A stretch of 64,000 nt of DNA from Limnohabitans sp. (lineage in GTDB: Bacteria; Bacteroidota; Bacteroidia; Flavobacteriales; Flavobacteriaceae): positions 1,690 to 65,689 of the forward strand of contig JASGCW010000009.1 of NCBI GenBank assembly GCA_030053945.1, written 5' to 3'. Positions 245-14,422 of this stretch are shown here, in pieces (the first letter of the stretch is position 1; every line of letters starts with the position of its first letter). Below the pieces are notes generated by a model, which had not been told where the DNA came from, did no database searches, and saw nothing but the letters and a program-made list of their open reading frames with translations. The translations under genes and the position numbers were made by a program.

Positions 245-991
245 TTAATATTTCCCATTCAACAATTCCCCTCCAATTCCTGATTTAGCTTCAATTCCTA
301 ATTTCTTCATCATTTCGTAAGTAGTACAAACGGCCGCAGAAGTTACAGGAATGCCACATTCTGTCTGAATTAAATCGATAGCTTCTAAGGATGGCATTTG
401 TACACAAGCCGAAGCTACTAATACATCTACATCTGTTAAATCTAGTGTTTTATAGATTTCTAATAAATTCAACGGATTTTGAGCCGCTACTTCTAAATTA
501 TCTGGAATTTCAAGCGCTATACTTTCCTTCACTTTGATGCCTTGATGCTCTATGTATTCTACCACTTTATCTGTTAACGGACGCATATATGGTGTGATAA
601 TAGAAATTTGTTTTGCTCCTAAAGTTTTTAATCCGTTGATTAATGCACCCGCAGATGTTACAATAGGAGTAGGGAAGCCATTGGCAATTGTTTCGGCGTG
701 AAGATTTGCTTCAGACACACAATGATATCCTTTACCCATACTCATAATAGCTACTAGACAAGCATAACCCATAACATCTACCTCTGCATCTGAAAGTTCG
801 ATGGCACATTTTAAACTCATAGCATCCATAGCTTCAAGCTCTTCTTTGGTTACTTTTTTCATTCGCATCCTGCTGCTATGAAAGGTAAAACGTTCTGGTA
901 AAATGGTTTCACGCGAACGGAAAATGGCTGGTATTTCGGTTTCCATCGTTACATTGCTCGATGGAACTATTTGTCCTATTTTGAATTTCAT
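245..991 (-). CDS. maiA: Maleate cis-trans isomerase (Asp/Glu racemase superfamily)
   Basis: N-terminal GQIVPSSNVTME motif; two catalytic-type Cys in YACLVA and SACVQMPS; 248 aa. Confidence 0.85.
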   Translation of the reverse strand: MKFKIGQIVPSSNVTMETEIPAIFRSRETILPERFTFHSSRMRMKKVTKEELEAMDAMSLKCAIELSDAEVDVMGYACLVAIMSMGKGYHCVSEANLHAETIANGFPTPIVTSAGALINGLKTLGAKQISIITPYMRPLTDKVVEYIEHQGIKVKESIALEIPDNLEVAAQNPLNLLEIYKTLDLTDVDVLVASACVQMPSLEAIDLIQTECGIPVTSAAVCTTYEMMKKLGIEAKSGIGGELLNGKY

Positions 992-1035: not shown

Positions 1036-1106
1036 ACTGAACACTAAAAACTGTTAACTGAACACTGCTAACTGTGACTGAACACTGCTAACTGTGACTG
1101 AATACT
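1036..1106. repeat. Intergenic tandem repeat (ACTGAACACTGCTAACTGTG x2 plus partial copies)
   Basis: 20-bp unit at 1057-1076 and 1077-1096; ACTGAACACT/ACTGAATACT partial copies at 1036 and 1097. Confidence 0.85.
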
Positions 1107-2013
1107 AAATTTCTTTAACAGTATTAATAATAGTCCCAATTCCTTCTACGGTAGCTTCTACTACATCACCATCATACATCCATTCTTGTGGGTCACGACC
1201 AGCACCAACACCCGCAGGGGTTCCTGTGGCAATGATATCACCAGCTTCTAAAGTGAAAACAGTACTTAAATCTTCAATTAAATCATTGATATTGAAAAGC
1301 ATAAATTTAGTATTAGAATTCTGTTTTTCCACACCATTTACTTTTAACGATAAATTCAAATTATGTGGATTTTCGATTTCGTCTTTGGTTACTAAAATAG
1401 GTCCCATAGGAGCGAAAGTGTCTTGTCCTTTAGAAACAATCCATTGTCCTTCACGGCGACAATCTCTGGCTGAAATATCGTTTATTACCGTATAACCAAA
1501 CACATAATCTAATGCTTCAGATTTAGATACGTATTTCCCTTTTTTTGAGATAATTACAGCCAATTCACATTCCCAATCTAATTGAGATGTTAGCTTGGTA
1601 TTTTTGATAATATCGGTATTAGTCGCTGTAACTGTTGTAGGTGGTTTTGAGAAGATAATTGGCTTTTGAGGAAGTTTACCAGTTGTATCTAAAGTACGTG
1701 CGCTTTCTGCTACGTGCTCTGTATAGTTTAATCCAATTCCTATAATATTTTTTCTTGGTTTAGGAATAGGAGCAAGGAAGGTAACTTCCTCCATTGTATA
1801 TGCAATTTCTTCAAATTGTTTATCGCTGGTTTCTGAAATTAAATCGTTTATTTCGGAAATGACTTCAAATCCCATATCGATTAATTCTAACATAGTTTTA
1901 GGTAACGGAAAATTGGATACATCGCCAAAATCTTCCATATCAATTACTTGGTTGTTGTGTATAAAGCCTAATCGAGGCTCTGAGTTTTCAATAGTGTAGG
2001 TGAGTAGTTTCAT
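1105..2013 (-). CDS. Fumarylacetoacetate hydrolase family protein
   Basis: IIGIGLNYTEH, IFSKP, DWECELAVII, GYTVINDISARD, GDIIATGTPAGVG motifs. Confidence 0.9.
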   Translation of the reverse strand: MKLLTYTIENSEPRLGFIHNNQVIDMEDFGDVSNFPLPKTMLELIDMGFEVISEINDLISETSDKQFEEIAYTMEEVTFLAPIPKPRKNIIGIGLNYTEHVAESARTLDTTGKLPQKPIIFSKPPTTVTATNTDIIKNTKLTSQLDWECELAVIISKKGKYVSKSEALDYVFGYTVINDISARDCRREGQWIVSKGQDTFAPMGPILVTKDEIENPHNLNLSLKVNGVEKQNSNTKFMLFNINDLIEDLSTVFTLEAGDIIATGTPAGVGAGRDPQEWMYDGDVVEATVEGIGTIINTVKEI

Positions 2014-2086: not shown

Positions 2087-3205
2087 TTATTCTTTAATTA
2101 TTTGATGTCCATTATTTTCTGTATAGTCTCTAGATTGATATAACCCTAATCCTTCAATTACAGGCAAGTCGTTAAAGTTAAATAAGCAGGCATCTTCGGT
2201 TTCTGAAAGGTTATGATGTTCATGAAATGCCCAAGAAGGAACGCAAAAAATATCTCTTTCTTTCCAATCAAAACGTTGTCCATTTATAATAGAATATCCT
2301 TTCCCTTTAGCACATTGATATACAAAAGATCCGGTATGGCGGTGTGCTTTTCCTTTGAATCCAGCAGGTAATAATTGGATTGCCGCCCCCATAGTTTGCA
2401 TAACATGCCCGCCTGTTAACGGATTTGAATATTTCATGAAAATTCCGTCGAATGGATTTAGTTCATTTACCTTTTGCGCTTCTAACAATGCAGGATATAC
2501 TTTAGACCATGAATATTTGAATAGGGGAGAATAGGGTTTTGTCCAAGTAGTCGTATCTGCTGGAATTAATCCAGAGCATCCATAAGTTATTGGACTGTAA
2601 TTTAAAGGAACATCCAAAGGTTGTTTTCCGTCAAAAACAGCATAATCATTAGCCTCTAGTGCATTTACCAATGGTATATCTAAACCATCCTGCCAAATAC
2701 AAGTTTCGCCATCTTCTTCAACGCCATGTTCATGCCAAGTAGAATTAGGAGTAATTACAAAATCATTGACTTCCAACATAATTTTGTTACCATCTACCAC
2801 TGTATATCCTTTTTTGCCTTCCATAATAAAACGTAGGGCAGAAGCACGATGTCTATGAGCAGAGGTGCTTTCACCTGGACGAGTAACTTGTATGCCAGTG
2901 TATAGCCAACCTACTGCTGCGGAAACGTCTTTACGTTTATCATTAACCAAATATACTACACGTCTTCCAGCTTGTTCTGGTGTTACTAATTCAGATGATT
3001 TTAGAACTAAATGTCTTAAATTTTCATATTTCCATAACATAGGAACAGAATTCGATTTAGGTTCCCAAGGTTCAATATCATTAGCTACTGTCCAAAGAGC
3101 TCCAGCGCCTAAAGTTTCTAATTCTTTATAATAGGCTTCTAGTTCAGGTGTGTCTTGAACACGAGCGCGACCTATAACGTCGTCTGAGTATTTTTTTTCT
3201 TCCAT
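2087..3205 (-). CDS. Bicupin ring-cleavage dioxygenase, gentisate 1,2-dioxygenase family
   Basis: AERR-like AGRRVVYLVN, AHRHRASALRF and WHEHG metal motifs in the first cupin; AHRHTGS and FHEHHN in the second. Confidence 0.85.
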   Translation of the reverse strand: MEEKKYSDDVIGRARVQDTPELEAYYKELETLGAGALWTVANDIEPWEPKSNSVPMLWKYENLRHLVLKSSELVTPEQAGRRVVYLVNDKRKDVSAAVGWLYTGIQVTRPGESTSAHRHRASALRFIMEGKKGYTVVDGNKIMLEVNDFVITPNSTWHEHGVEEDGETCIWQDGLDIPLVNALEANDYAVFDGKQPLDVPLNYSPITYGCSGLIPADTTTWTKPYSPLFKYSWSKVYPALLEAQKVNELNPFDGIFMKYSNPLTGGHVMQTMGAAIQLLPAGFKGKAHRHTGSFVYQCAKGKGYSIINGQRFDWKERDIFCVPSWAFHEHHNLSETEDACLFNFNDLPVIEGLGLYQSRDYTENNGHQIIKE

Positions 3206-3269: not shown

Positions 3270-4027
3270 TCATTCTATAATTAGTTCATTAATTTCTGAT
3301 AAATTATGTTCTTGATTATGGAACTCGATAAAATTACTTTTATTTCCGTATATGTCTAAAATTTCTTCTCTTTTAATTTTTGTTTTTTTGTCTGATACAA
3401 CACTTTCATATGTTTAAATTTTATTTTTCAGCGGTAACATATGGTATCCCTTTTTTAATCATTGGTGTTTACCTCACTTAGCATTTATTTTTATAGGTGT
3501 TCAGTGAATATATTTGCATACGCAAACTACTTGTTTATGGGGATTTCATATGATGACCAAGGATATAAACTCATTTTATCTGTAAATCCGTGTTGAACAG
3601 GGTTGTTGTGGATATAATAAATGAGATTTTTAAGATAGCGTTCTGATATCACTTTTTTTCTTTCAAAAGGAACTTCAAAAAGACTTCCAGTTCGTTTGAA
3701 TTTTTTATTTATCGCTTGTGTGTAAGCGTTAAAAAGATATCCAAATTGTCTTGAAGGTTCAATAACATTTGCCTTTTCTACTGTTGAATATTCTAATTTA
3801 TCTATTTCAATTTCATAGGGTAATTTTAGATAGACTAAAATATGAAAATGATTTTTCAGTAAACACCAAGCATAAGTTTCAGCAATAGGAGAAAAATACT
3901 TATCATAAAGTCTTAAAAAATGGAAATAACTTTCACTATCAAAAAAAACATCTATTTTATTATTACCTCTATTATAAATGTGGTAATAATTTCCAGTTTC
4001 TAATGGTAATGGTTTATAGGATTTCAT
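3270..4027 (-). pseudogene. REP-associated tyrosine transposase (RAYT, Y1/HUH), disrupted by a 140-bp insertion
   Basis: YYHIYNRGNN, HUH motif NHFHILV, YIHNNPVQHG and YPWSS. Removing 3411-3550 joins ...PWSS in frame to YESVVSDKKTKIKREEILDIYGNKSNFIEFHNQ...IE* (3410-3270), giving a 205-aa protein. Confidence 0.85.
3411..3550. mobile_element. 140-bp non-autonomous inserted element, copy 1
   Basis: Flanked by TTTCATA(TG) direct repeats at 3404-3412 and 3544-3552; interrupts the RAYT frame; homologous copy at 27763-27856. Confidence 0.8.
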
Positions 4028-4104: not shown

Positions 4105-5073
4105 TTACTCATTTGTATGATCTACAAACGTAATTTTTCGAGTGGGTGCCACATTCACTCTTAAATCAAAAATATCAAATCGGTTATAATGCCCTAAAAT
4201 ATCGTGCATTTGCTTTGGCTGAATGCATTTTTGTAAATCTATTTCAGCATAAATAATTCCTTCATCATCAATTAGAGGTTCTCCTATTACAGCACCATTA
4301 GGACCTAAAAATCCTGAAAAAGCCGAACTTTTTCTAGCAAATAATTCTTCAATTTGTGGCGCTTCTGGTTTTAAAAATTCCATAATTTCTTTTGAAATTG
4401 TTGAGCAAGAAACTATGGTAAATAATTTGCCTTCAAAAGAATGAGCCGCAGCACGGATTTTAATTGCTTCCGCCATATTATAATCTGGTGGTGCAACAGG
4501 AAGTGAGATGTAATTAGCAATATGAACTAATTCACCCTGTGAAAGTAATGTGAATCTTGCCAATGTATTTGTGTTTTCTCCACAAGCTAACGTTCCGATA
4601 GGGCCAACTTCTGTGTCATAAACCTTTAAAGAAGAACCATCACCGCTAGTCCACGTAAGTTTTTCGGCCCAAGTGGGTACTAATTTTCTATGTCTTCCAA
4701 TTAGTTGGCCTTTGTTATCTATAATTAAATTGGTGTTATAAATTTCGCCATAGCTTTTACCTCGCTCGTTAATTCCAATAACAATATGCATATCAAAATC
4801 TTTAGCAGCTTGATATAGTTTTTGCATTGCTAAATCATCTGTTGCCACCGAATTTTTATACAATTCCTCGTACCATTTACTTCCTTGAACAGGTGTCATT
4901 ACCCAATTCCAGTAAGGATAACCTGCAATAAATACCTCAGGAAAAGCAATGAGTTTAGCTCCGTTTTGAGATGCTTCTTTTATAAAAGATATGGCTTTGT
5001 CGATTGTTTTTTCAACATCTAAAAAAACAGGCGAAGTTTGTACTGTAGCGGCTTTGAATTTTTTAAATTCCAT
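4105..5073 (-). CDS. Nitrilase-family carbon-nitrogen hydrolase
   Basis: Catalytic triad contexts FPEVFIAGYP (E), HRKLVPT (K) and TLACGEN (C); C-terminal DILGHYNRFDIF. Confidence 0.9.
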   Translation of the reverse strand: MEFKKFKAATVQTSPVFLDVEKTIDKAISFIKEASQNGAKLIAFPEVFIAGYPYWNWVMTPVQGSKWYEELYKNSVATDDLAMQKLYQAAKDFDMHIVIGINERGKSYGEIYNTNLIIDNKGQLIGRHRKLVPTWAEKLTWTSGDGSSLKVYDTEVGPIGTLACGENTNTLARFTLLSQGELVHIANYISLPVAPPDYNMAEAIKIRAAAHSFEGKLFTIVSCSTISKEIMEFLKPEAPQIEELFARKSSAFSGFLGPNGAVIGEPLIDDEGIIYAEIDLQKCIQPKQMHDILGHYNRFDIFDLRVNVAPTRKITFVDHTNE

Positions 5074-5085
5074 TTTAAATATATT

Positions 5086-6171
5086 TTAATTAGAAACCTT
5101 ACGCATTAAAGTTTCTAATGGTCCGTTTTTAAATTTCTTGTCCCAAATTACGCTAAAAATAACACTAATTACAAAAAAAGCGATTGCATAGGCGAGAATA
5201 TAAATAGTTCCTACTGGTTTTCCAGTAGGAATGTTTCCTTTAGTAAATCGTTTATTGAATATAAATTGAAAAATTAAAACGCCAATAGTAAGATGAATTA
5301 CATAGTGTGTCAACGTCATTTGTCCTGTTTTTTGTAGAGATTGAATGATTTTATTATGGGCAAAAATTTCACCTATATATATGCAAATCACAATTACGAT
5401 TAGTGCAAAACCTATCGTTACTAAAATGAATGGTAGATAAGGTGGGAAATATTCGGCTAAAATATAATCTTTCAAAAAAGGAGGGAAGTTATCATTTTTT
5501 GCAAAGTATCTCAATAATTGAATAGAACCAAAAAGCGCAACACCTGTAAGAAAGATGTTTTGTTTAATTTTTTTGAGATTCCAGTCGAGTTTACCTAACC
5601 ACATTCCTATAACAAAATAAGTAAACCACGGGAATATTGAATTCCATCCATTATACAAGGAATTTCTTAGAAAACCTTTTATTGACCAGAAATCTGTATA
5701 ATCAAAGGTGTTGAAATTCCAACCTGTTTCGATTGGAATAAAGTTAAGTAGGATATTGTGCGCTACTAATGTTACTATCGCTATTGACAAATAAAATCTT
5801 GATGGAATAAATAATATAAATGCTGCAATATGCATATATCCACCATAGAAATGCAAAATATCACCTTGCCACCAATTATAAAGTAAGAGCCCCAAGCCAA
5901 ACAAAAACCAAGAGCGTTTAAGCACTTTTGATTTTAATTTAGATTGTTCTTCTTTAGTTAAATTAGGTTTGTTTGACATCAAAGAAACGCCCATTCCCGC
6001 ACAAATAATGAAAATGGCAGTCGAATTACCAGTAAATAAGCTCATAAACCACCCTACAGAATCAGTAGGAGCAAACATAATTGAACCAAAACTGAAATTG
6101 AAGTTTACAATAAACATTCCTAAAATAGCATAGGCACGAGCTAGATCAAAACCTGTAATTCTTTGATTCAT
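5086..6171 (-). CDS. DUF418-type multi-pass membrane protein
   Basis: RITGFDLARAYAILGM, GDILHFYG, GQMTLTHY and GPLETLMR motifs; many hydrophobic helices. Confidence 0.7.
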   Translation of the reverse strand: MNQRITGFDLARAYAILGMFIVNFNFSFGSIMFAPTDSVGWFMSLFTGNSTAIFIICAGMGVSLMSNKPNLTKEEQSKLKSKVLKRSWFLFGLGLLLYNWWQGDILHFYGGYMHIAAFILFIPSRFYLSIAIVTLVAHNILLNFIPIETGWNFNTFDYTDFWSIKGFLRNSLYNGWNSIFPWFTYFVIGMWLGKLDWNLKKIKQNIFLTGVALFGSIQLLRYFAKNDNFPPFLKDYILAEYFPPYLPFILVTIGFALIVIVICIYIGEIFAHNKIIQSLQKTGQMTLTHYVIHLTIGVLIFQFIFNKRFTKGNIPTGKPVGTIYILAYAIAFFVISVIFSVIWDKKFKNGPLETLMRKVSN

Positions 6172-6596
6172 TAAGATTTAAGTAAAAAATAACTGATTTT
6201 TTCTCTCATTGCATCAGTAAATGCTTCAGAGGTTATTGTTTTTCTATCCTCTGCAATTTTTACATTGACTAATGTTACTTCGCCTTCAAGGACAACTTCG
6301 TTTTGTTGGTTTTTGAAAATAAAGCCACATAATAGGGAAGAGGTGCGAAGCTCTTTTACATACAGTTCCTTTACGATTGTTTCTCCTAATCGAGCTGCTT
6401 TTTTGAATTGTACTTTCAAATCGACCGTAGGCATTCCATTTGTCTCGTGCATTTTTGAAAACGGACGATGTAAAGCTTCTTCAAACCAGTCTTCAACCAA
6501 GTCGTTTAGCATTTCCAAAAATCTTGGGTAAAACACAATTCCAGCATAATCTATATGCTTAAATTTTATTTTTTGTTCTTTTATAAAGTATTTCAT
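6171..6596 (-). CDS. Acyl-CoA thioesterase (4-HBA-CoA/hotdog family)
   Basis: IKFKHIDYAGIVFYPRF motif; 141 aa. Confidence 0.85.
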   Translation of the reverse strand: MKYFIKEQKIKFKHIDYAGIVFYPRFLEMLNDLVEDWFEEALHRPFSKMHETNGMPTVDLKVQFKKAARLGETIVKELYVKELRTSSLLCGFIFKNQQNEVVLEGEVTLVNVKIAEDRKTITSEAFTDAMREKISYFLLKS

Positions 6597-6680: not shown

Positions 6681-8270
6681 CTATTTCAATTTAAAACGCT
6701 GAATTTTACCCGTTTCTGTTTTGGGTAGTGAATTCACGAAATTTATCACTCTTGGGTATTTATATGGTGCGGCTACTTCTTTGAACCACTGCTGAATAGA
6801 TTTAATCATTTCGTTAGTTTCTTTAGAAGAATCTTTCAACACTACGTAAGCACAAACTAACATTCCACGTTCTTCGTCAGGAACACCAACCACAGCACAT
6901 TCTAATATATCATTGTGAGTCAGGAGTACACTTTCTACTTCTATTGCGGCAATATTATACCCTGAGGAAATAATCATATCATCACCACGAGCTACAAAAT
7001 AAAAATAGCCTTCTTCATCTTGTCTAAAAACATCACCAGTAATATTCCATCCGTACTGAACATATTCCTTTTGCTTATCTTCTCGACCTAAATATTTGCA
7101 ACCCGTAATTCCTCTAACGGCCAATCTTCCAGCTTCATTACGAGGCAATTCATTTCCGTTACTATCAATAATTTTTGCTTCATAGCCTGTTATGGCAACG
7201 CCAGTACTACCAGGCTTCATATTTTCCACATTAGATGAAATGAAAATATGTAACATTTCAGTGGCACCTATACCATCTATTATTTTTAATCCTGTTGTAT
7301 CATACCATTCTTGCCAAATTTTCAAGGGTAGTGTTTCACCAGCAGATACACATTTGCGAAGACTTGAAAGGTTAAATTCTGATACTTTTTGAGTTAAAAC
7401 CCGCCAAGCTGTTGGCGCTGTAAAACATATAGTAATTTTATGTTCTTCGATTGCTTGAAGAAGCAAATCCGGTGAAGGTTTTTCAATTAGAAACGTTGAA
7501 GCTCCGTAATACATTGGAAATAAAACCAATCCACCTAAACCAAATGTAAATCCTAAAGGTGGACTTCCTGTAAAAATATCATCAGCTTTTGGTTGAAGGG
7601 AATACTGAGGAAAAGCTTCGCAAATGTTTAAAACATCTCGATGATAATGTGCTGTCATTTTAGGTAAACCCGTTGTGCCAGAAGTAAACCCAATTAATGC
7701 TACACTATCAGCTTTTGTATGATAATTTTGAAATGTTTTAGACTTAGATTGCATTAAAGTTTCTAGTTCAGAATTTCGATAGAAACAAGTTCTTTTCAGA
7801 AAATCTGAATGTACTAAATTCATTTCTTCACTAAGATCATTATCACAAAGTGCTATTGAAATTTCGGCGCAATCAATTATTGTTGTTAGCTCTTTTGAAC
7901 GCAATAATGGCATAGTTGCTATAACAATTCCACCAGCTTTAAGAATCGCAAACCAACACGCGACCATCATAGGGTTATTGGCACTGCGTAACAAAACTCT
8001 ATTTCCAGATTGTAATCCTAAATTATCCACTAAAACGTGAGCAATTTGATTTGCTTTTTCATACAAATCTTGATAGGTCCAAGTTTCCGTAAAGGTGCGA
8101 ATACAAATACTATTTCCCCGACCTTCTTTTATATGATTATCTAGCAAACGTTCAACACAATTAAGCATTTCTAGTTTGTTAAATTGTGGCAAATCCAAAA
8201 AAGCATACTCGGGATGTAAGTTTGTGCTTGGTAAATTATCCTGAGCGAAAGTATCTTTAAAATGTTTCAT
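6681..8270 (-). CDS. Aromatic acid-CoA ligase (2-aminobenzoate/benzoate-CoA ligase type)
   Basis: FTSGTTGLPK, SAGETLP, IDGIGATEMLHIF, TGD and LPKTETGKIQRF adenylation motifs. Confidence 0.85.
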   Translation of the reverse strand: MKHFKDTFAQDNLPSTNLHPEYAFLDLPQFNKLEMLNCVERLLDNHIKEGRGNSICIRTFTETWTYQDLYEKANQIAHVLVDNLGLQSGNRVLLRSANNPMMVACWFAILKAGGIVIATMPLLRSKELTTIIDCAEISIALCDNDLSEEMNLVHSDFLKRTCFYRNSELETLMQSKSKTFQNYHTKADSVALIGFTSGTTGLPKMTAHYHRDVLNICEAFPQYSLQPKADDIFTGSPPLGFTFGLGGLVLFPMYYGASTFLIEKPSPDLLLQAIEEHKITICFTAPTAWRVLTQKVSEFNLSSLRKCVSAGETLPLKIWQEWYDTTGLKIIDGIGATEMLHIFISSNVENMKPGSTGVAITGYEAKIIDSNGNELPRNEAGRLAVRGITGCKYLGREDKQKEYVQYGWNITGDVFRQDEEGYFYFVARGDDMIISSGYNIAAIEVESVLLTHNDILECAVVGVPDEERGMLVCAYVVLKDSSKETNEMIKSIQQWFKEVAAPYKYPRVINFVNSLPKTETGKIQRFKLK

Positions 8271-8275
8271 CTTTT

Positions 8276-9175
8276 TTAGTTTAAAAAACTTTCAATTTCT
8301 TTAAAATATAATTCTTTAGCATCCAGCCAACCATAATGTGCACAATTATCTATTGTAACTAATTTTGAGTTTGGAAATGCTTTAGCAATTTCTTCAGCTG
8401 TTTCAACTGAAATGATATCGTTTTTGCCTTGTAACACTAAAACGGGTTGCTTAAAATTTGAAAAAGAGTTGCTACAGTCAAATTTTATTTTTTGAAGGTT
8501 TTGAATAACTAACGAATTAGTTTTTCTATTCAATTGCGTTAATCTCTCCGCAATGATTGGTGCTTTTGATTTATCAAAAACATAAGCATTAGCTAAAACT
8601 GCAGCTCTCTTTTTAGAAGTTTCTTCAGAAATATCTCCAGATTCTATTTTTTCTTGATAATAATTCAAAGAATCTTGCTGCTCCTTAGTTAAGTTATTAT
8701 TCAATCGTGTGCCTAAATAATCTAAAAATTTCAGATTGATACCTCCTGATGATGAAAAAATGAGTTTTTCTATTGTGTTGGGATGTTTACTAGCATAGTA
8801 AGCTTCCATAATTCCCCCAAAAGAATGTCCTAAAATTGTCCATTTTTTTATTTTAAGATGTTTTCTTAGATTTTCTATATCTTTTACCATCAAATCCATA
8901 GTGATATTATTTTCATCTAATGAAGTAATTACTGATTGTCCAGTACCACGCTGGTCATAAATAATAGTCTTGTAATTTAATTTTGCAAGCTCTTTAGCAA
9001 TAAAAACAAAACCTTCACAATTCATACCTGGTCCACCATTTATTATTAAAATAGGCTTTCCTTTGCCAAAAGTTTTATAATGAAGTTTTACATTTTCATT
9101 TGAAATAGTATTTTCTGTTTGTGAATAACAAAAAAACTGACTAAATAATCCTAATAATGCCAATATATTTTTCAT
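8276..9175 (-). CDS. Secreted alpha/beta hydrolase (proline iminopeptidase-like)
   Basis: Signal peptide-like N-terminus; NGGPG, YDQRGTG, GHSFGG nucleophile motif, C-terminal CAHYGW. Confidence 0.75.
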   Translation of the reverse strand: MKNILALLGLFSQFFCYSQTENTISNENVKLHYKTFGKGKPILIINGGPGMNCEGFVFIAKELAKLNYKTIIYDQRGTGQSVITSLDENNITMDLMVKDIENLRKHLKIKKWTILGHSFGGIMEAYYASKHPNTIEKLIFSSSGGINLKFLDYLGTRLNNNLTKEQQDSLNYYQEKIESGDISEETSKKRAAVLANAYVFDKSKAPIIAERLTQLNRKTNSLVIQNLQKIKFDCSNSFSNFKQPVLVLQGKNDIISVETAEEIAKAFPNSKLVTIDNCAHYGWLDAKELYFKEIESFLN

Positions 9176-11590
9176 TTATAGTTTGTTACTTTTCGGTTTT
9201 AATGCTTTTTTCATACCCTCTAACTGTTTTCTTTCTGAAGCTTTTAAAGGATATAAATGGCTATTGCCCATTTTGTATTGATTAGGTATAAATTGGTCTG
9301 TATATTGTTCATAAGCTTGAGCATTACGAACAAAATTAGCGTCGGCCAAAAGCGGTCTTCCTAGAGCTACTAAATCAGCACGTCCATTTAAAATGGTAGT
9401 GTTAATTTGGTCAATATCTTGGATATAACCCGCAGTAATAGTAGGAATTTGTACCGTATTACGAACCAAATCAGAAAAAGGAGTTTGCCACATTCTTCCT
9501 GTTTGAGGTTTTTGATTAGAAACCGTATTTCCAGTAGAAACATTAATAATATCTGCTCCTGCCTTTTTGAAAGTTTCTGCAATTATAATAACATCTTCTT
9601 CAGAAATTCCGTTTTCTGCCCAATCAGATGCTGATATTCTTACCGACATAGGTTTGTCAGTTGGAAAGGCATTTCGCATTTCGGTAAAAACTCGTAGAGG
9701 GAATTTTAGTCGATTTTCAATACTTCCACCAAATTCATCCCTACGAATATTAGTCAGAGGTGAAAGGAAAGAAGCTAATAGAAATCCGTGATGTGCTTGT
9801 AATTCTACTAAATCAAATCCAGCCTTATCTGCATTTAGTGTTGCTTGGACAAACTGCGAAGTGACCAAATCCATATCTTCAAGAGTCATTTCTTTAGGTG
9901 TAATAGAACTATCATTAAATGGAATAGCTGAAGCGGATAGCAATTCCCAAGGTTGACCAGTAAAAGTGTCTTGCCAAGGAATTTTTGAACAGCCTTTTCT
10001 TCCAGAGTGTCCTAATTGAATTCCTATTTTAGTGGAGGTATTATGATGGATAAAATCGGTTATTTTTTTCCATTCAAGTAATTGATTTTCATTATATATA
10101 CCCGCACAAGCTAAAGTGATTCTTCCATTTTCTGCAACTGCAGTCATTTCAGTCAAAATTAGTCCTACACCTCCTGTCGCTCGGCTACCATAATGGACTA
10201 AATGCCAATGGTTAACCAAACCATCTTTCGCTGAATATTGCCCCATTGGAGCCATTACAATTCGGTTAGAGAGTTCTAGATTGCGTAACTTGAAAGGGGT
10301 AAAGGCAGCGCTTTTGCCTTCGAGAGCCTCAGGCAACGCTTCGAGAGCCTCAGGCAACGCTTCGAGAGCCTCAGGCAACGCTTCGAGAACCTCAGGCAAC
10401 GCTTCGAGAACCTCAGGCAAAGCGTTTTTGTTGTCTGAGGCACTCGAAGACAACAAAGAAGACGACAAAAACTCTTTTAAAACCTTATCTGTAAATGATT
10501 TATCTCGTAAACGAAGGTTTTCATAAGTCACTTTTTTAGAGCGAGTCATACAGCCAAATGCAAATTGGTAAAAAGAATGCTGAATGTGTCGATCCATATT
10601 TTCAAACCAATCTAATGAAACAGTCGCTGCATACTGAATCATTTCTACTGGATTTCTTCGTGTTTGTTCATATTGTTCAAAGGCTGCTTGAATATCATTA
10701 GGATTTGCAATTACCGCATCTGATAGTCCTATAGCACAATCCATTGCCAGCTTTGTCCCCGAACCAATAGAGTAGTGGGCAGTAGCTTTTGCATCACCCA
10801 GCAATACCATATTATTGTGATACCAATTCTTATTAGTCACGTGTGGAAATTGTCTCCAATGTGATTTGTTAGAAATCAAAGGATGACCATCTAGTTCATC
10901 TTTAAAAATTTCCTGAATTTTAGTAATTGTATCTTCCTCGTTGGTTACTTCAAAACCAATATTTTCCCAAGTTTCATCACTACATTCAAATATCCAAGTA
11001 CTCATACCAGGTTCATATTGGTAGGAATGGGCTACAATAGTTCCGTGTGGAGTAGTTCTAAAAAAATAGGTAAAAGCATCCAGAGGTTTTGTAGAACCCA
11101 ACCATACAAACCGATTCTTTTTTAAAGTAATTTGAGTACCAAATTCTTTTTCAAATTTAGTTCGTGTTAAACTTCCTATTCCGTCAGCTACAAGAATAAT
11201 ATCTGAATCTTGCAATGGTGCCAAATCAGTAATTTCAGACTCAAAATGTAGATTAATTCCTTCTTCTTGACAACGTTGATGCAATAATTTTAATAAAGTC
11301 TTCCTTGAACAGCCACAAAAACCATTTCCAGAAGCACTTACTTGCTGTCCGTCACGAGCGACAATAATATCATCCCAATACGCAAAATTAGAGCGAATCA
11401 ATTCATAAGATTGCATATCACGTTTCAGGAATTCGCCTAAAGTTTCATCTGAAAACACAACCCCAAATCCGAAACTATCGTCGGGTTTGTTTCGTTCATA
11501 TATATCTATTTGACAATTTGGAATTGCTTTTTTTGTAAGTATTGAAAAGTAAAGTCCGCCTGGACCGCCACCTATAACAGTTATTTTCAT
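9176..11590 (-). CDS. Bifunctional salicylyl-CoA 5-hydroxylase / 2-aminobenzoyl-CoA monooxygenase-reductase type (FAD monooxygenase plus OYE-like domain)
   Basis: GGGPGGLY, FGFGVVFSD, GDAKATAHYSIGSGTKLAM in the N-domain; NRIVMAPMGQYSA, HHGFLLASFLSPLTN in the C-domain. Confidence 0.85.
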   Translation of the reverse strand: MKITVIGGGPGGLYFSILTKKAIPNCQIDIYERNKPDDSFGFGVVFSDETLGEFLKRDMQSYELIRSNFAYWDDIIVARDGQQVSASGNGFCGCSRKTLLKLLHQRCQEEGINLHFESEITDLAPLQDSDIILVADGIGSLTRTKFEKEFGTQITLKKNRFVWLGSTKPLDAFTYFFRTTPHGTIVAHSYQYEPGMSTWIFECSDETWENIGFEVTNEEDTITKIQEIFKDELDGHPLISNKSHWRQFPHVTNKNWYHNNMVLLGDAKATAHYSIGSGTKLAMDCAIGLSDAVIANPNDIQAAFEQYEQTRRNPVEMIQYAATVSLDWFENMDRHIQHSFYQFAFGCMTRSKKVTYENLRLRDKSFTDKVLKEFLSSSLLSSSASDNKNALPEVLEALPEVLEALPEALEALPEALEALPEALEGKSAAFTPFKLRNLELSNRIVMAPMGQYSAKDGLVNHWHLVHYGSRATGGVGLILTEMTAVAENGRITLACAGIYNENQLLEWKKITDFIHHNTSTKIGIQLGHSGRKGCSKIPWQDTFTGQPWELLSASAIPFNDSSITPKEMTLEDMDLVTSQFVQATLNADKAGFDLVELQAHHGFLLASFLSPLTNIRRDEFGGSIENRLKFPLRVFTEMRNAFPTDKPMSVRISASDWAENGISEEDVIIIAETFKKAGADIINVSTGNTVSNQKPQTGRMWQTPFSDLVRNTVQIPTITAGYIQDIDQINTTILNGRADLVALGRPLLADANFVRNAQAYEQYTDQFIPNQYKMGNSHLYPLKASERKQLEGMKKALKPKSNKL
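10318..10457. repeat. In-frame 21-bp tandem repeat x5 plus one inverted copy (REP-like doublet) inside the CDS
   Basis: CTTCGAGA(G/A)CCTCAGGCAACG at 10318, 10339, 10360, 10381 and 10402 (the last ends AAG); inverted copy TTGTCTGAGGCACTCGAAG at 10431-10449. Encodes ALPE(V/A)LE repeats. Confidence 0.95.
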
Positions 11591-11803
11591 AATTATGTTT
11601 TCTTAAAATCAAAAGCACCTAAAATGATGCTGTTTGCTAAATATGTTTTTAAATAAACTTAAAATATTTTCTCTTCGAAAAATTTCAGAAAATCATTTCA
11701 AGTTTTACTAAGCAAGAAATTTTGTCTGAGAAATTATTTATACTTCAAAATACTTAATTAGTAGTTTTTAAATTTTATATTAATTGCCAATTCACACTGC
11801 TTT

Positions 11804-12415
11804 TTAACCTCTTTTAATCGAAAATATTTCTCCTAACTTTGCATAATTAGAACCTGCTAAACGAGCAACAGGTTTATAATTCATTAGGTCTATTTTGTGA
11901 TCGTCAAGGAGTATTGTATCATCAAAATGCATCATTACAATTTTTCCAATAATCACACAAGCTCCACCATTTTTGTGACCTTCAAGAAAATAATGATGAA
12001 CCATTTCACATTCAAAATGAACCTTACTTTCTTTAACTCTTGGAGCATTAACTTTTATAGAATCAATAGGAGTTAATCCAGCCAACTCAAATTCACTTTC
12101 ATTAGATGGTATAGCTTGAGAAGTTGTATTCATCTTTTCCACTAAATCTTCTGTAACTAAATTTACAACAAATTGTTTTGAAGCTAATATATTGTTTAGT
12201 GTATCTTTATTTTTGTTACCTGTTCTTACAGTAGAAAACATTATATGTGGGGGATCTTCACCTACGGCATTAAAATAAGAAAAAGGAGCAAGGTTGTTTA
12301 TTCCATTTTCATCTACCGTAGAAATCCAACCTATAGGTCTTGGAATAATAGCACCTGTTAGTAATTTATATATTGCTTTGTCATCTATTATAGTAGGATC
12401 AAATTGCATTTTCAA
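11804..12415 (-). CDS. Flavin reductase-like family protein
   Basis: IPRPIGWISTV, NLAPFSYFN, KDTLNNI, PVARLAGSNY motifs. Confidence 0.85.
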   Translation of the reverse strand: MKMQFDPTIIDDKAIYKLLTGAIIPRPIGWISTVDENGINNLAPFSYFNAVGEDPPHIMFSTVRTGNKNKDTLNNILASKQFVVNLVTEDLVEKMNTTSQAIPSNESEFELAGLTPIDSIKVNAPRVKESKVHFECEMVHHYFLEGHKNGGACVIIGKIVMMHFDDTILLDDHKIDLMNYKPVARLAGSNYAKLGEIFSIKRG

Positions 12416-12512
12416 GTTGTTTGTTTATTTACAAATAAAAAGAAAAAAAACTAGAATTAAAAACCAATCTTTAGTCAACTTATTTATAATTTTAGCAAAA
12501 AATTTACAAACT

Positions 12513-14420
12513 ATGAGTTATTTTACAATCAAGGATTTAGAACACTATTTTAAAATGTATAAAAAGTCGGTTCGCGAGCCCAAAAAGTTTTGGGACAAAA
12601 TAGCCGATGAAAACTTTGTTTGGTATCAAAAATGGGATAAAGTTTTTGATTTTAATATGCAAGAAGCTCAATTCAAATGGTTTGTAGATGCAAAAGTTAA
12701 CATAACAAAAAATTGTATTGATCGTCATTTAGCTAGAAAGGGTGACAAGACTGCCATTTTATTTGAACCAAATAACCCTAATGAAGAAGCTGTACATATA
12801 AGTTACAATGAGCTTTACAAAAGAGTATCTAAAATGGCGAATGTACTTCGCGATCAAGGTGTAAAAAAAGGAGATAGAGTTTGTATTTATTTGCCTATGA
12901 TTCCAGAACTTGCAGTAGCTGTTTTAGCCTGTGCAAGAATAGGAGCAATTCATTCTGTCGTATTTGCTGGTTTTTCTGCGGGAGCACTTGAAGCAAGGAT
13001 AAATGATTGCGAAGCTTGTGTAGTTATTACCTCAGATGGTGGGTACAGAGGTGACAAAACTATTAACTTAAAAGCAATTGTAGATGAAGCCCTACAAAAG
13101 TGTCCTACTATTAATAAAGTTTTTGTAGCTAAACGTACTAATCATTCTGTTGAAATGAAAGAAAACAGAGACTTTTGGTTACAGCCTCTTTTAGACAGTG
13201 CATTAGATACAAATGTTGCAGAAATGATGGATGCAGAAGATCCATTGTTTATTTTATACACTTCAGGTTCAACAGGAAAACCAAAAGGGATGTTACATAC
13301 CACTGCTGGTTATATGGTTTACACGGGTTATACATTCAAAAATGTTTTTAATTATCAAGAAGATGATATTTTTTGGTGCACAGCCGATATAGGTTGGATA
13401 ACTGGTCACTCATATATATTATATGGACCACTATTAAACGGAGCTACAACTGTTATGTTTGAAGGTGTGCCTTCGTATCCTAATTTTTCGCGCTTTTGGG
13501 AAGTAATAGAAAAGCATAAAATCACACAATTTTATACAGCTCCTACAGCGATTAGGGCTTTAGCAAAGGAAAGTTTAGATTATGTACAACGTTTTCCTTT
13601 AAAATCACTAAAAGTTATTGGAAGTGTTGGTGAACCCATAAATGAAGAAGCTTGGCACTGGTATAATGATCATGTAGGAGGGAAGCGTTGCCCACTTGTT
13701 GATACTTGGTGGCAAACCGAAACAGGCGGAATTTTAATTTCACCAATACCATTTGTAACTCCTACAAAACCAACTTATGCAACGTTACCATTACCAGGAA
13801 TCCAACCAGTATTGATGGATGAATTACGTAATGAAATTGAAGACAATCAGGTTGTAGGTAGTTTGTGTATTAAATTCCCATGGCCAAGTATTGCTAGAAC
13901 TATTTGGGGTGATCATCAACGTTTTAAAGATACTTATTTTAAAGCATTTCCAGGTAAATATTTTACAGGTGACGGAGCACTACGCGACGAAGTAGGTTAT
14001 TATAGAATCACTGGAAGAGTTGATGATGTGATTATAGTTTCAGGTCATAATTTAGGGACAGCACCTATAGAAGATGCAATAAACGAGCATCCAGCAGTGG
14101 CGGAAAGTGCAATTGTTGGTTTTCCGCATGATATAAAAGGAAATGCTTTATATGGATATGTAATGCTGAAAGAAGTGGGTGAGAATAGAGATAAAGAAAA
14201 TGTATCTATTGAAATTAATCAATTAATTTCTGATCAGATAGGTCCAATTGCTAAATTAGACAAAATACAATATGTAAATGGTTTGCCTAAAACACGCTCG
14301 GGTAAAATTATGCGTCGTATTTTACGTAAAATAGCAGAAGGTGATTTCTCAAACTTTGGTGATACTTCTACATTGTTAAATCCAGAGATAGTTGAAGAAA
14401 TTAAAGAAGGGAAAGTTTAA
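12513..14420 (+). CDS. acs: Acetyl-CoA synthetase
   Basis: YTSGSTGKPKG, DTWWQTETGG, GLPKTRSGKIMRR. True start taken as the ATG at 12513 (MSYFTIK). Confidence 0.95.
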   Translation: MSYFTIKDLEHYFKMYKKSVREPKKFWDKIADENFVWYQKWDKVFDFNMQEAQFKWFVDAKVNITKNCIDRHLARKGDKTAILFEPNNPNEEAVHISYNELYKRVSKMANVLRDQGVKKGDRVCIYLPMIPELAVAVLACARIGAIHSVVFAGFSAGALEARINDCEACVVITSDGGYRGDKTINLKAIVDEALQKCPTINKVFVAKRTNHSVEMKENRDFWLQPLLDSALDTNVAEMMDAEDPLFILYTSGSTGKPKGMLHTTAGYMVYTGYTFKNVFNYQEDDIFWCTADIGWITGHSYILYGPLLNGATTVMFEGVPSYPNFSRFWEVIEKHKITQFYTAPTAIRALAKESLDYVQRFPLKSLKVIGSVGEPINEEAWHWYNDHVGGKRCPLVDTWWQTETGGILISPIPFVTPTKPTYATLPLPGIQPVLMDELRNEIEDNQVVGSLCIKFPWPSIARTIWGDHQRFKDTYFKAFPGKYFTGDGALRDEVGYYRITGRVDDVIIVSGHNLGTAPIEDAINEHPAVAESAIVGFPHDIKGNALYGYVMLKEVGENRDKENVSIEINQLISDQIGPIAKLDKIQYVNGLPKTRSGKIMRRILRKIAEGDFSNFGDTSTLLNPEIVEEIKEGKV

Positions 14421-14422
14421 TT

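What the first reader, a model, noticed from the sequence alone, without database searches (positions are those of the whole stretch)
4105..5073. Why a nitrilase in a gentisate-type operon? Candidate maleamate amidohydrolase
Inference from chemistry: 1,2-dioxygenase cleavage of 5-hydroxyanthranilate would turn the C2-NH2 into a carboxamide, so FAH would release maleamate rather than maleate, and an amidase would be needed before maleate isomerase. The Pseudomonas nicotinate pathway uses the same maleamate to maleate to fumarate steps (NicF, NicE) but with an isochorismatase-family amidase. The nucleophile motif here is ACGEN rather than the CWE typical of aromatic nitrilases. The alternative is an entry nitrilase for 2-cyanophenol or 2-aminobenzonitrile.
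Basis: inference. Interest (0 to 1): 0.55.

Follow-up and report, generated by a model that had tools for sequence, protein, structure and literature searches.

The report
Nitrilase of an anthranilate ring-cleavage module
This Flavobacterium gene encodes an intact nitrilase-type enzyme that travels across several bacterial phyla with a ring-opening dioxygenase, an acylpyruvate hydrolase and usually maleate isomerase, and it most likely frees the nitrogen in an undescribed route for breaking down anthranilate, a product of tryptophan, indole and auxin decay.

Summary
Window 4105-5073 (-) is an intact 322-aa branch-1 nitrilase-superfamily gene (E46/K130/E137/C164, motif LACGEN). It lies inside a CoA-dependent hydroxylase / gentisate-type dioxygenase / FAH / maleate isomerase operon.

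The gene is a core member of that operon:
- The order is kept in 19 of 20 Flavobacterium loci.
- In 400 genus genomes, nitrilase and dioxygenase are both present in 189, both absent in 200, and split in 11, mostly fragmented assemblies.
- Orthologs (58-68% identity) occur in at least 592 species genomes. In 80 diverse loci the dioxygenase is adjacent in 75, FAH in 74 and maleate isomerase in 55.
- Outside Flavobacterium the module sits beside isatin hydrolase and iadA/iadB of auxin-degradation loci, so the substrate is amino-substituted (anthranilate or isatinate), not salicylate.
- Transporter-nitrilase-isomerase mini-operons indicate that the nitrilase makes maleate directly.

Its use of the CGEN motif is not, and amide (maleamate) versus nitrile ((Z)-3-cyanoacrylate) stays open. 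A second, NIT4-like nitrilase clade fills the same slot in other clusters, once next to a NicX-like dioxygenase.

I found no paper describing this. The scan has already reported the same module on other DNA (for example e1-5211976, e1-5211626, e1-4987838).

The parts
4105..5073 (-). Branch-1 nitrilase-superfamily enzyme (the finding), 322 aa. Catalytic E46, K130, E137 and C164, motif LACGEN. Proposed nitrogen-releasing step that yields maleate.
   Evidence: It is 85-89% identical in 19 other Flavobacterium loci. It forms a well-supported clade across four phyla.
2087..3205 (-). GDOsp-type bicupin ring-cleaving dioxygenase. Proposed to open 5-hydroxyanthranilate between C1 and C2.
   Evidence: 3bu7 E 1.9e-155. 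It scores below the NCBIfam gentisate 1,2-dioxygenase cut-off (299.7 against 442.1). It is adjacent to the nitrilase in 75 of 80 diverse loci.
1105..2013 (-). FAH-family acylpyruvate hydrolase. Proposed to split the ring-fission product into pyruvate and a C4 nitrogen compound.
   Evidence: Pfam FAA_hydrolase E 2.9e-69. PDB 8sky E 1.4e-65 and maleylpyruvate hydrolase 6jvv E 1.7e-25. Adjacent in 74 of 80 loci.
245..991 (-). Maleate cis-trans isomerase.
   Evidence: 4fq7/4fq5 E 1e-90 over the full length, 2xec E 8e-57. Adjacent in 55 of 80 loci.
6171..6596 (-). Hotdog (4HBT) thioesterase. Proposed to release the hydroxylated aromatic acid from CoA.
   Evidence: Pfam 4HBT_2/4HBT. Conserved directly upstream of the nitrilase in Flavobacterium loci.
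6681..8270 (-). Aryl-CoA ligase of the benzoate-CoA ligase family. Proposed anthranilate-CoA ligase.
   Evidence: TIGR02262 at 325 bits, cut-off 375. Conserved. Streptomyces loci show the same ligase-hydroxylase-nitrilase-dioxygenase order.
9176..11590 (-). Fused FAD monooxygenase/OYE enzyme of the salicylyl-CoA 5-hydroxylase / 2-aminobenzoyl-CoA monooxygenase-reductase family.
   Evidence: NF006101 at 956.8 bits, cut-off 1078. Present in 40 of 80 diverse loci.
11804..12415 (-). Flavin reductase-like protein, first gene of the operon. Role unknown.
   Evidence: Pfam Flavin_Reduct E 1.3e-24. It recurs in Flavobacterium, Ralstonia and Burkholderia, and next to the second nitrilase clade.
8276..9175 (-). 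Alpha/beta hydrolase, an accessory gene found in only 4 of 20 Flavobacterium loci plus the window.
5086..6171 (-). DUF418/HGSNAT-like membrane protein inserted between the thioesterase and the nitrilase. Not found in the other 20 loci.
3527..4027 (-). RAYT-like (REP-associated tyrosine transposase) gene lying between the nitrilase and the dioxygenase.
   Evidence: NF047646 E 1.2e-11. The same insertion is seen in three other species (L040, L044, L053).

Best explanation
The gene encodes the nitrogen-releasing hydrolase of the lower, ring-fission module of a CoA-dependent anthranilate pathway. The proposed route in this Flavobacterium is as follows. Anthranilate is activated by the CoA ligase. 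The fused monooxygenase hydroxylates it at C5 on the thioester, and the hotdog thioesterase frees it as 5-hydroxyanthranilate. The GDOsp-type dioxygenase opens the ring between C1 and C2 with the nitrogen still attached. The FAH-type hydrolase splits off pyruvate. The nitrilase-family enzyme converts the remaining C4 nitrogen compound to maleate plus ammonium, and maleate isomerase makes fumarate. What is shown: gene identities, intact catalytic residues, conserved synteny, co-inheritance, and linkage to isatin hydrolase and iadAB. What is inferred: every substrate and product.
For: (1) The enzyme is intact and under strong constraint. It is 85-89% identical across 19 Flavobacterium species, as conserved as the dioxygenase and the isomerase. 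(2) Co-inheritance in 400 genus genomes: both genes 189, neither 200, nitrilase only 6, dioxygenase only 5. Two of the 'dioxygenase only' cases hold nitrilase fragments at contig ends. (3) The clade is monophyletic across Bacteroidota, Actinomycetota and Alpha-, Beta- and Gammaproteobacteria, and at least 592 species genomes carry it. In the best 80 loci the dioxygenase is adjacent in 75, FAH in 74 and the isomerase in 55, while the upstream genes vary: IorAB 45, hydroxylase 40, CoA ligase 7. (4) The substrate carries nitrogen. The 'cyclase family' gene beside the module is isatin hydrolase (5nmp E 1e-137, 5nna E 1e-99). IorAB are iadA/iadB, markers of the iad auxin loci that run IAA through isatin and isatinate to anthranilate (PMC9613470). 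Another Flavobacteriaceae genus has hydroxylase, isatin hydrolase and IorA next to the module. Orthologs occur in the indole degraders Cupriavidus sp. IDO and Burkholderia sp. IDO3. No other C-N hydrolase is conserved in the cluster. (5) Maleate is the likely product. Nitrilase and isomerase genes overlap by 4 bp in Caballeronia and Burkholderia, where the gene order dioxygenase-FAH-nitrilase-isomerase equals the proposed reaction order. MFS transporter-nitrilase-isomerase under IclR (Parapusillimonas) and ABC transporter-nitrilase-isomerase (Polaromonas) operons contain no dioxygenase. (6) For the amide: a second nitrilase clade sits with the dioxygenase and FAH in Aminobacter directly beside a NicX-like 2,5-dihydroxypyridine dioxygenase (7cn3 E 6e-58) and an alpha/beta hydrolase, a route known to give maleamate, and no isochorismatase-type NicF is annotated in that stretch. 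(7) The host has kynureninase and tryptophan 2,3-dioxygenase, a source of anthranilate.
Against: No activity has been measured for any member of this clade that I could identify. All characterised branch-1 members are nitrilases or cyanide-converting enzymes, not dedicated amidases (established knowledge). Two separate branch-1 clades were recruited (30% identity, far apart in the tree). One of them is close to the plant beta-cyanoalanine nitrilase NIT4 (E 2.8e-112), which favours a nitrile substrate. GDOsp of R. pomeroyi, the dioxygenase of this very module, is listed in the literature among gentisate 1,2-dioxygenases that have been purified and characterised (PMC4585797), so nitrogen could be lost before cleavage. 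The isomerase is missing from 25 of 80 loci, notably Bradyrhizobium and Achromobacter. The alphaproteobacterial clusters lack a hydroxylase nearby. Cleavage of a 2-amino analogue by a gentisate-type dioxygenase has no precedent that I found.
Confidence: 0.62

Rival explanations
1. The enzyme is a true nitrilase. The dioxygenase opens 5-hydroxyanthranilate to a nitrile (the cyclic imidate collapses by elimination instead of hydrolysis). FAH releases (Z)-3-cyanoacrylate, and the enzyme hydrolyses it to maleate plus ammonia. This is the nitrile half of the best explanation, listed separately because it differs from the first reader's amidase.
For: The protein is a branch-1 nitrilase by every sequence test. 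Two unrelated branch-1 clades fill the same slot, and in the roughly 100 loci examined no other conserved C-N hydrolase was seen in their place, although amidase families such as NicF were not searched for. The second clade matches NIT4, a nitrilase for the C4 acid beta-cyanoalanine, at E 2.8e-112. The stoichiometry balances, since the nitrile is the amide minus water (inference).
Against: No ring-cleaving dioxygenase is known to form a nitrile, and (Z)-3-cyanoacrylate is not a known metabolite (own knowledge; no supporting paper found). The Aminobacter cluster pairs the second nitrilase clade with a NicX-like enzyme whose pathway gives maleamate. Stand-alone uptake operons fit a known natural compound such as maleamate better.
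Confidence: 0.28
2. The enzyme removes the nitrogen before ring cleavage. It would act, for example, on 5-hydroxyanthranilate, its CoA ester or the enaminone product of the monooxygenase/reductase, so that ordinary gentisate is cleaved and maleylpyruvate is hydrolysed to maleate.
For: GDOsp is listed among gentisate 1,2-dioxygenases that have been purified and characterised (PMC4585797). Old physiology reports anthranilate going to gentisate in Nocardia opaca and Alcaligenes In3, with genes unknown (PMC4539516; PMC6221969). The flavin reductase-like gene that recurs beside the nitrilase could re-aromatise or reduce a quinone intermediate.
Against: Hydrolysis of an aryl amine or enaminone is unknown in the nitrilase superfamily. 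The nitrilase stays with dioxygenase-FAH-isomerase even where no hydroxylase is near (Leisingera, Embleya, roseobacters). The transporter-nitrilase-isomerase operons have no dioxygenase or FAH, so the nitrilase product there must feed the isomerase directly.
Confidence: 0.1
3. The enzyme acts on the C7 ring-fission product before FAH. It would convert the amide or nitrile of maleylpyruvate to maleylpyruvate, which FAH then splits.
For: In Flavobacterium, roseobacters and actinobacteria the nitrilase gene directly precedes the dioxygenase gene, in places with a 4-bp overlap.
Against: The gene order dioxygenase-FAH-nitrilase-isomerase with nitrilase/isomerase overlap in Burkholderiales, and the mini-operons without FAH.
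Confidence: 0.08
4. The enzyme is an entry nitrilase or amidase that converts an aromatic nitrile or amide (2-aminobenzonitrile, 2-cyanophenol, anthranilamide) to the acid taken up by the CoA ligase.
For: The nearest solved relatives hydrolyse aromatic and arylaceto-nitriles. In Flavobacterium a CoA ligase follows, so a free acid is the ligase substrate.
Against: In 45 of 80 loci the CoA ester is made by IorAB from a 2-oxoacid, leaving no step for a nitrile. The nitrilase is linked to the lower module, not to the variable upper genes. The mini-operons pair it with the isomerase only.
Confidence: 0.05

Closest known systems
NicF/NicE of Pseudomonas putida KT2440 and Ami/Iso of P. putida S16 (maleamate amidohydrolase followed by maleate isomerase in nicotinate and nicotine catabolism)
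   Same: The proposed last two steps are the same: a C4 nitrogen compound goes to maleate plus ammonia, then to fumarate. The isomerase here is a close homolog of Iso (4fq7 E 1e-90). A ring-cleaving dioxygenase followed by a hydrolase supplies the C4 unit in both.
   Different: NicF and Ami are isochorismatase-fold enzymes, whereas this is a nitrilase-superfamily protein. The ring here is a benzene ring opened by a bicupin dioxygenase, and the C4 unit is released by an FAH enzyme with pyruvate, not by a deformylase with formate. The substrate may be a nitrile.
Branch-1 nitrilases with solved structures (8uxu nitrilase; NitA of P. fluorescens EBC191, 6zby; Nit6803, 3wuy; cyanide dihydratases)
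   Same: Same fold, length, E-K-E-C residues and C-terminal extension, with E values of 1e-51 to 2e-64. NitA also departs from CWE, with CAE (alignment).
   Different: Gly follows the nucleophile. The protein scores below the only NCBIfam nitrilase equivalog cut-off (223.8 against 502.6). It is fixed in a catabolic operon, and its substrate is unknown.
CoA-dependent salicylate-to-gentisate pathway (Streptomyces sp. WA46 sdgABCD; Rhizobium sp. X9 cehGHI; Bacillus halodurans gentisyl-CoA thioesterase), named from my own knowledge
   Same: The upper logic is the same: ligase, CoA-ester 5-hydroxylase of the same fused family, thioesterase, then a gentisate-type dioxygenase.
   Different: As I recall, those clusters have no nitrilase, and they process a 2-hydroxy acid. 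Here the linkage to isatin hydrolase and iadAB points to the 2-amino acid.
Azoarcus evansii Abm route (2-aminobenzoate-CoA ligase plus 2-aminobenzoyl-CoA monooxygenase/reductase, then beta-oxidation)
   Same: Anthranilate is activated as a CoA ester and attacked at C5 by a homologous fused flavoenzyme (PMC4539516). R. pomeroyi carries such a cluster, with beta-oxidation genes next to tryptophan dioxygenase, at a separate locus.
   Different: The operon here has no beta-oxidation genes. It has a thioesterase and a ring-cleaving dioxygenase instead, so the ring stays aromatic and is opened by oxygen.
iad auxin-degradation loci (Variovorax, Achromobacter, Bradyrhizobium, R. pomeroyi; PMC9613470)
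   Same: iadA/iadB (IorAB) and IadR-type MarR genes lie directly beside the nitrilase module in R. pomeroyi, Bradyrhizobium and others.
   Different: The paper ends the pathway at anthranilate and does not mention the nitrilase, dioxygenase or FAH genes (no hits in text or supplements). The Flavobacterium operon has no iad genes and starts from the free acid.

Membership tests
Nitrilase superfamily, branch 1 (nitrilases / cyanide hydratases) | CN_hydrolase alpha-beta-beta-alpha domain | tested here: met
   Pfam PF00795 E 3.1e-41 over residues 7-285.
Nitrilase superfamily, branch 1 (nitrilases / cyanide hydratases) | Catalytic Glu-Lys-Glu-Cys residues in conserved motifs | tested here: met
   E46 (FPEVF), K130 (RHRK), E137 (WAEK) and C164 (ACGEN) in the translation. 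All are invariant in the six-sequence alignment A1 (four Flavobacteriaceae, one other Flavobacteriaceae genus, one metagenome genome of unknown taxon).
Nitrilase superfamily, branch 1 (nitrilases / cyanide hydratases) | Closest relatives by sequence are characterised nitrilases rather than amidase branches | tested here: met
   Nitrilases and cyanide dihydratases score E 1e-51 to 2e-64. Nit2 scores 7e-07, aliphatic amidase 7e-05 and carbamoylases 1e-07.
Nitrilase superfamily, branch 1 (nitrilases / cyanide hydratases) | Active-site signature C-[WA]-E-[NH] (PROSITE-type pattern, recalled from memory) | tested here: not met
   The sequence reads C-G-E-N. CGE is nevertheless the commonest form among the 150 nearest representatives, 75 of 150.
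Nitrilase superfamily, branch 1 (nitrilases / cyanide hydratases) | Hydrolysis of a nitrile to acid plus ammonia | not testable with these tools
   No characterised member of this clade could be identified. The link to REH16, Nitphym or bll6402 stays unresolved.
Nit6803-family nitrilase (NCBIfam TIGR04048) | Score above the curated cut-off | tested here: not met
   223.8 bits against a cut-off of 502.6.
Maleamate amidohydrolase NicF/Ami (isochorismatase family) | Isochorismatase-like fold | tested here: not met
   The only domain found is CN_hydrolase. By descent it is not a NicF, so any shared function would be convergent.
Maleamate amidohydrolase NicF/Ami (isochorismatase family) | Genomic pairing with maleate isomerase | tested here: met
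   The isomerase is in the same operon in the window and in 55 of 80 diverse loci. There are 4-bp overlaps in Burkholderiales and mini-operons with a transporter.
Maleamate amidohydrolase NicF/Ami (isochorismatase family) | Hydrolysis of maleamate to maleate plus ammonia | not testable with these tools
   This needs an enzyme assay.
NIT4-type beta-cyanoalanine nitrilase | Close sequence similarity to NIT4 | tested here: not met
   P0001 against 6i00 gives only E 5.9e-38, weaker than against bacterial nitrilases. The second clade found in Novosphingobium, Aminobacter and Tistrella clusters does meet it (E 2.8e-112).

The most novel reading that the evidence does not exclude
The GDOsp-type dioxygenase opens 5-hydroxyanthranilate to a nitrile rather than an amide. 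This clade, and independently a NIT4-like clade, would then be true nitrilases for (Z)-3-cyanoacrylate. That would be the first ring-cleaving dioxygenase known to form a nitrile, and the first central catabolic role assigned to bacterial nitrilases. It would also supply the missing downstream half of the iad auxin and isatin degradation pathways.
Probability: 0.27. Interest if true: 0.85.

Novelty: new variant of a known kind. Interest (0 to 1): 0.65.

Why it matters
Three open points would become testable.

1. The genes for the old 'anthranilate to gentisate-type cleavage' route are unknown. It was reported in Nocardia in 1968 and Alcaligenes in 1983, and a 2018 review (PMC6221969) still calls them unreported. 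This module is a concrete candidate.

2. The iad auxin-degradation loci of root-associated Variovorax, Bradyrhizobium and Achromobacter are described only as far as anthranilate. The nitrilase module lies right beside iadA/iadB and would explain how the ring and the nitrogen are finally used.

3. Bacterial branch-1 nitrilases are widely used as biocatalysts, but few have a known natural role. Here a clade found in at least 592 species genomes gets a specific, checkable physiological substrate. About half of the sampled Flavobacterium species carry the operon, so it may matter for tryptophan, indole and auxin turnover in freshwater and soil.

Tried and rejected
- Literature. Searches for maleamate+nitrilase, 2-aminobenzoyl-CoA+nitrilase, isatinate+anthranilate+CoA and combined pathway terms found nothing relevant. 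The GDOsp paper (PMC2492823) is not held, so its kinetics could not be read.
- Link to a characterised enzyme. I tried to tie the clade to assayed nitrilases (bll6402, REH16, Nitphym, NIT191) through papers and cluster names. Cupriavidus necator and Bradyrhizobium do carry orthologs, but identity with the assayed proteins could not be established. I do not use it as evidence.
- CGEN motif as an amidase marker. Rejected.
- Dioxygenase active site. Mapping onto salicylate dioxygenase 2phd shows the three Fe histidines, R83, Q108, R127 and H162 all kept. The one clear difference I noticed (Gln two residues after the second His becomes Ala) has no known meaning, so it is not used.
- More distant homologs. 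At 45-51% identity (P0126, P0127, Polaromonas pPNAP04) the gene contexts are unrelated, so the functional clade starts near 58% identity.
- Phylogeny. The maximum-likelihood tree with the mixture model did not finish in time. The FastTree result is reported instead.
- Isatin hydrolase in the window's own genome. Only a 28% match was found, so this species probably starts from free anthranilate.
- Not run. Structure prediction, complex prediction and read mapping, because none could separate amide from nitrile.
Full report
**What is there**

The minus-strand ORF 4105-5073 (ATG start, 322 aa) is a complete carbon-nitrogen hydrolase. Pfam CN_hydrolase scores E 3.1e-41. Its nearest solved relatives are true nitrilases (8uxu E 2e-64, NitA 6zby E 6.5e-61, Nit6803 3wuy) and cyanide dihydratases. 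The amidase branches of the superfamily are remote: Nit2 7e-07, aliphatic amidase 7e-05. The translation carries E46, K130, E137 and C164, with the motif LACGEN. It scores far below the only NCBIfam nitrilase equivalog (223.8 against 502.6 bits). So it is a branch-1 nitrilase-family protein with no curated name.

The surrounding minus-strand genes are:
- a flavin reductase-like protein (11804-12415);
- a fused FAD monooxygenase/OYE enzyme of the salicylyl-CoA 5-hydroxylase / 2-aminobenzoyl-CoA monooxygenase-reductase family (9176-11590);
- an alpha/beta hydrolase, an aryl-CoA ligase and a hotdog thioesterase;
- a DUF418 membrane protein, then the nitrilase, then a RAYT-like gene;
- a bicupin dioxygenase (3bu7 GDOsp E 1.9e-155);
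- an FAH-family hydrolase;
- a bona fide maleate isomerase (4fq7 E 1e-90).

**Is the nitrilase part of the pathway?**

The top 120 of 5368 homologs are 80-94% identical, and those that carry a source name are Flavobacteriaceae. In 20-kb stretches from 19 other Flavobacterium species the order is kept throughout: flavin reductase, hydroxylase, ligase, thioesterase, nitrilase, dioxygenase, FAH, isomerase. In one of the 19, G307, the lower genes lie 11 kb away on the same contig. The nitrilase is 85-89% identical, among the best conserved genes of the cluster.

In 400 sampled genomes of the genus the nitrilase is present in 195 and the dioxygenase in 194:

| Nitrilase | Dioxygenase | Genomes |
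|---|---|---|
| present | present | 189 |
| absent | absent | 200 |
| present | absent | 6 |
| absent | present | 5 |

Most of the eleven discordant genomes are incomplete assemblies. Two of the 'dioxygenase only' genomes hold nitrilase fragments at contig ends. Kin are not independent, so I give counts and no test statistic.

**Beyond Flavobacterium**

- A genome from another Flavobacteriaceae genus (66% identity) and a metagenome genome (59%) keep nitrilase-dioxygenase-FAH-isomerase together. Homologs at 45-51% have unrelated neighbours.
- Annotated plasmids and megaplasmids of Ruegeria pomeroyi, Sagittula, Sulfitobacter, Leisingera, Shinella, Ralstonia, Caballeronia, Burkholderia and Embleya carry 58-65% orthologs, always with the dioxygenase, FAH and isomerase.
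- A scan of species-representative genomes found at least 592 with the clade's signature peptides.
- In the best 80 loci the dioxygenase is adjacent in 75, FAH in 74 and the isomerase in 55. These loci include Bradyrhizobium, Providencia, Xenorhabdus, Klebsiella, Vibrio, Cupriavidus, Achromobacter, Streptomyces and Glutamicibacter. The upstream genes differ: IorAB in 45, hydroxylase in 40, CoA ligase in 7.
- The clade is monophyletic and sits inside a larger CGE-motif clade.

The nitrilase thus belongs to the lower, ring-fission module, not to the variable entry steps.

**Which substrate enters?**

Several observations point to the 2-amino acid rather than salicylate.
- The 'cyclase family protein' next to the module in Caballeronia, Burkholderia and Shinella is isatin hydrolase (5nmp E 1e-137, 5nna E 1e-99). 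tblastn also finds matches to the Caballeronia enzyme within about 10 kb of the module in Sagittula and Sulfitobacter (59-60% identity).
- It also lies between the hydroxylase and IorA in the other Flavobacteriaceae genus.
- IorA/IorB are iadA/iadB, the marker genes of the iad auxin loci. Those loci degrade IAA through isatin and isatinic acid to anthranilate in Variovorax and Bradyrhizobium, and R. pomeroyi was shown to degrade IAA (PMC9613470).
- The Bradyrhizobium locus has two MarR genes, IorBA, a Rieske oxygenase, a ligase and an SDR next to nitrilase-dioxygenase-FAH.
- Orthologs occur in the indole degraders Cupriavidus sp. IDO and Burkholderia sp. IDO3.

I infer that IorAB turns isatinate (2-aminophenylglyoxylate) into 2-aminobenzoyl-CoA. 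Flavobacterium and Streptomyces reach the same thioester with a ligase. The window's genome lacks isatin hydrolase but has kynureninase and tryptophan dioxygenase. Since the substrate carries nitrogen and the nitrilase is the only conserved C-N hydrolase, it is the obvious nitrogen-releasing step.

**Where does it act?**

Two loci pair a transporter with only the nitrilase and the isomerase: IclR/MFS in Parapusillimonas and an ABC system in Polaromonas. A third pairs a TRAP transporter with the nitrilase alone. In Burkholderiales the order dioxygenase-FAH-nitrilase-isomerase matches the proposed reaction order, and the last two genes overlap by 4 bp.

This argues that the nitrilase product is maleate and its substrate a C4 compound. 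It argues against deamination before ring cleavage and against an entry nitrilase.

**Amide or nitrile?**

Here the evidence divides.

GDOsp-type clusters that lack this clade (Novosphingobium resinovorum, Aminobacter, Tistrella) contain a different branch-1 nitrilase together with the flavin reductase gene. It has the motif ICWENYMP and is 30% identical to ours. In Novosphingobium the hydroxylase and thioesterase are also present. This second clade lies far away in the tree and is a close homolog of plant NIT4, the beta-cyanoalanine nitrilase (E 2.8e-112).

For a nitrile such as (Z)-3-cyanoacrylate:
- two independent recruitments of true-nitrilase lineages, and no other conserved C-N hydrolase seen in their place in the loci examined (amidase families were not searched for);
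- chemically, the cyclic imidate expected from cleavage next to an amino carbon could eliminate to a nitrile (inference).

For maleamate:
- the Aminobacter cluster places the second nitrilase beside a NicX-like 2,5-dihydroxypyridine dioxygenase (7cn3 E 6e-58) and an alpha/beta hydrolase, and that pathway yields maleamate;
- normal dioxygenase chemistry gives the amide;
- stand-alone uptake operons fit a known metabolite.

I lean slightly to the amide.

The CGEN motif does not help. Half of the nearest representatives have it, in unrelated contexts, and the stand-in clade has CWEN.

**Caveats**

- GDOsp, the dioxygenase of the R. pomeroyi module, is treated in the literature as a characterised gentisate dioxygenase.
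- Alphaproteobacterial and Bradyrhizobium clusters lack a nearby hydroxylase. R. pomeroyi has a classical Abm-type cluster elsewhere.
- The isomerase is missing from 25 of 80 loci.
- One Sulfitobacter cluster has RidA and no nitrilase.
- No enzyme of the clade has a measured activity that I could tie to it.

**Comparison and novelty**

By function the closest system is NicF/NicE (Ami/Iso). By descent the protein is a branch-1 nitrilase, not a NicF. The upper steps resemble the Sdg/Ceh salicylate route and the Abm anthranilate route.

No paper in the searchable library links a nitrilase to maleamate, 2-aminobenzoyl-CoA or this module. A 2018 review states that the genes of the anthranilate 'gentisate' route are unknown.

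The scan itself has reported the same module on other genomes, with similar conclusions. I reached mine before reading those notes.

I rate it a new variant of a known kind of pathway, interest 0.65.

Noticed in passing
window 5086-6171 (-): A DUF418/HGSNAT-like membrane protein sits between the thioesterase and the nitrilase, with a 12-bp gap to the nitrilase and a 1-bp overlap with the thioesterase. It has no counterpart in the 20 other loci compared, so it looks like a recent insertion into the operon.
   Followed up: partly
L038:11085-12665, L052:7424-9007 and other Flavobacterium loci; L046:10461-11783, L047:8132-9454: Several Flavobacterium species carry optional genes inside the operon. 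One is a 526-aa FMN protein with the glutamate synthase central domain, between the ligase and the thioesterase. In two species an APC amino-acid permease lies between the nitrilase and the dioxygenase. Both hint at nitrogen handling or an amino-acid-like substrate.
   Followed up: partly
L079:14039-19398 (Aminobacter aminovorans pAA02); L080, L081: A second, NIT4-like nitrilase clade always sits directly upstream of a flavin reductase gene next to a GDOsp-type dioxygenase and FAH. In Aminobacter the following genes are a NicX-like 2,5-dihydroxypyridine dioxygenase, an ACAD-fold (two-component monooxygenase-like) protein and an alpha/beta hydrolase, which suggests two ring-cleavage routes converging on one C4 nitrogen intermediate.
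   Followed up: partly
L084, L129, L141, L142 at about 11870-12730; L132:6364-7257; L080:20666-21562: A hormone-sensitive-lipase-type alpha/beta hydrolase recurs just downstream of the nitrilase, especially in loci without maleate isomerase (Achromobacter, Pigmentiphaga). It is 31-33% identical to the hydrolase next to tryptophan dioxygenase in R. pomeroyi, so it may be an arylformamidase.
   Followed up: no
L078 (Sulfitobacter alexandrii plasmid) 11484-15491: This variant cluster has MarR, a GDOsp-type dioxygenase, FAH and flavin reductase, with RidA and a thioesterase on the other strand. There is no nitrilase and no isomerase. It may be a different way of removing the nitrogen.
   Followed up: no
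window 9176-11590 (-): The hydroxylase ORF is 804 aa here, against open frames of about 770-784 aa in other species. I did not examine the repeat.
   Followed up: no
window 3527-4027 (-) and L040, L044, L053: A RAYT-like gene lies between the nitrilase and the dioxygenase in the window and in three other Flavobacterium species. It is therefore an inherited insertion that splits the otherwise tight nitrilase-dioxygenase pair. Its effect on operon transcription is unknown.
   Followed up: no
L162 (G209:C23:21000-40999): One Flavobacterium genome (93% complete) keeps the dioxygenase, FAH and isomerase, but no nitrilase or hydroxylase was found anywhere in the assembly. This may be a natural loss of the upper half, or an assembly gap.
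   Followed up: partly
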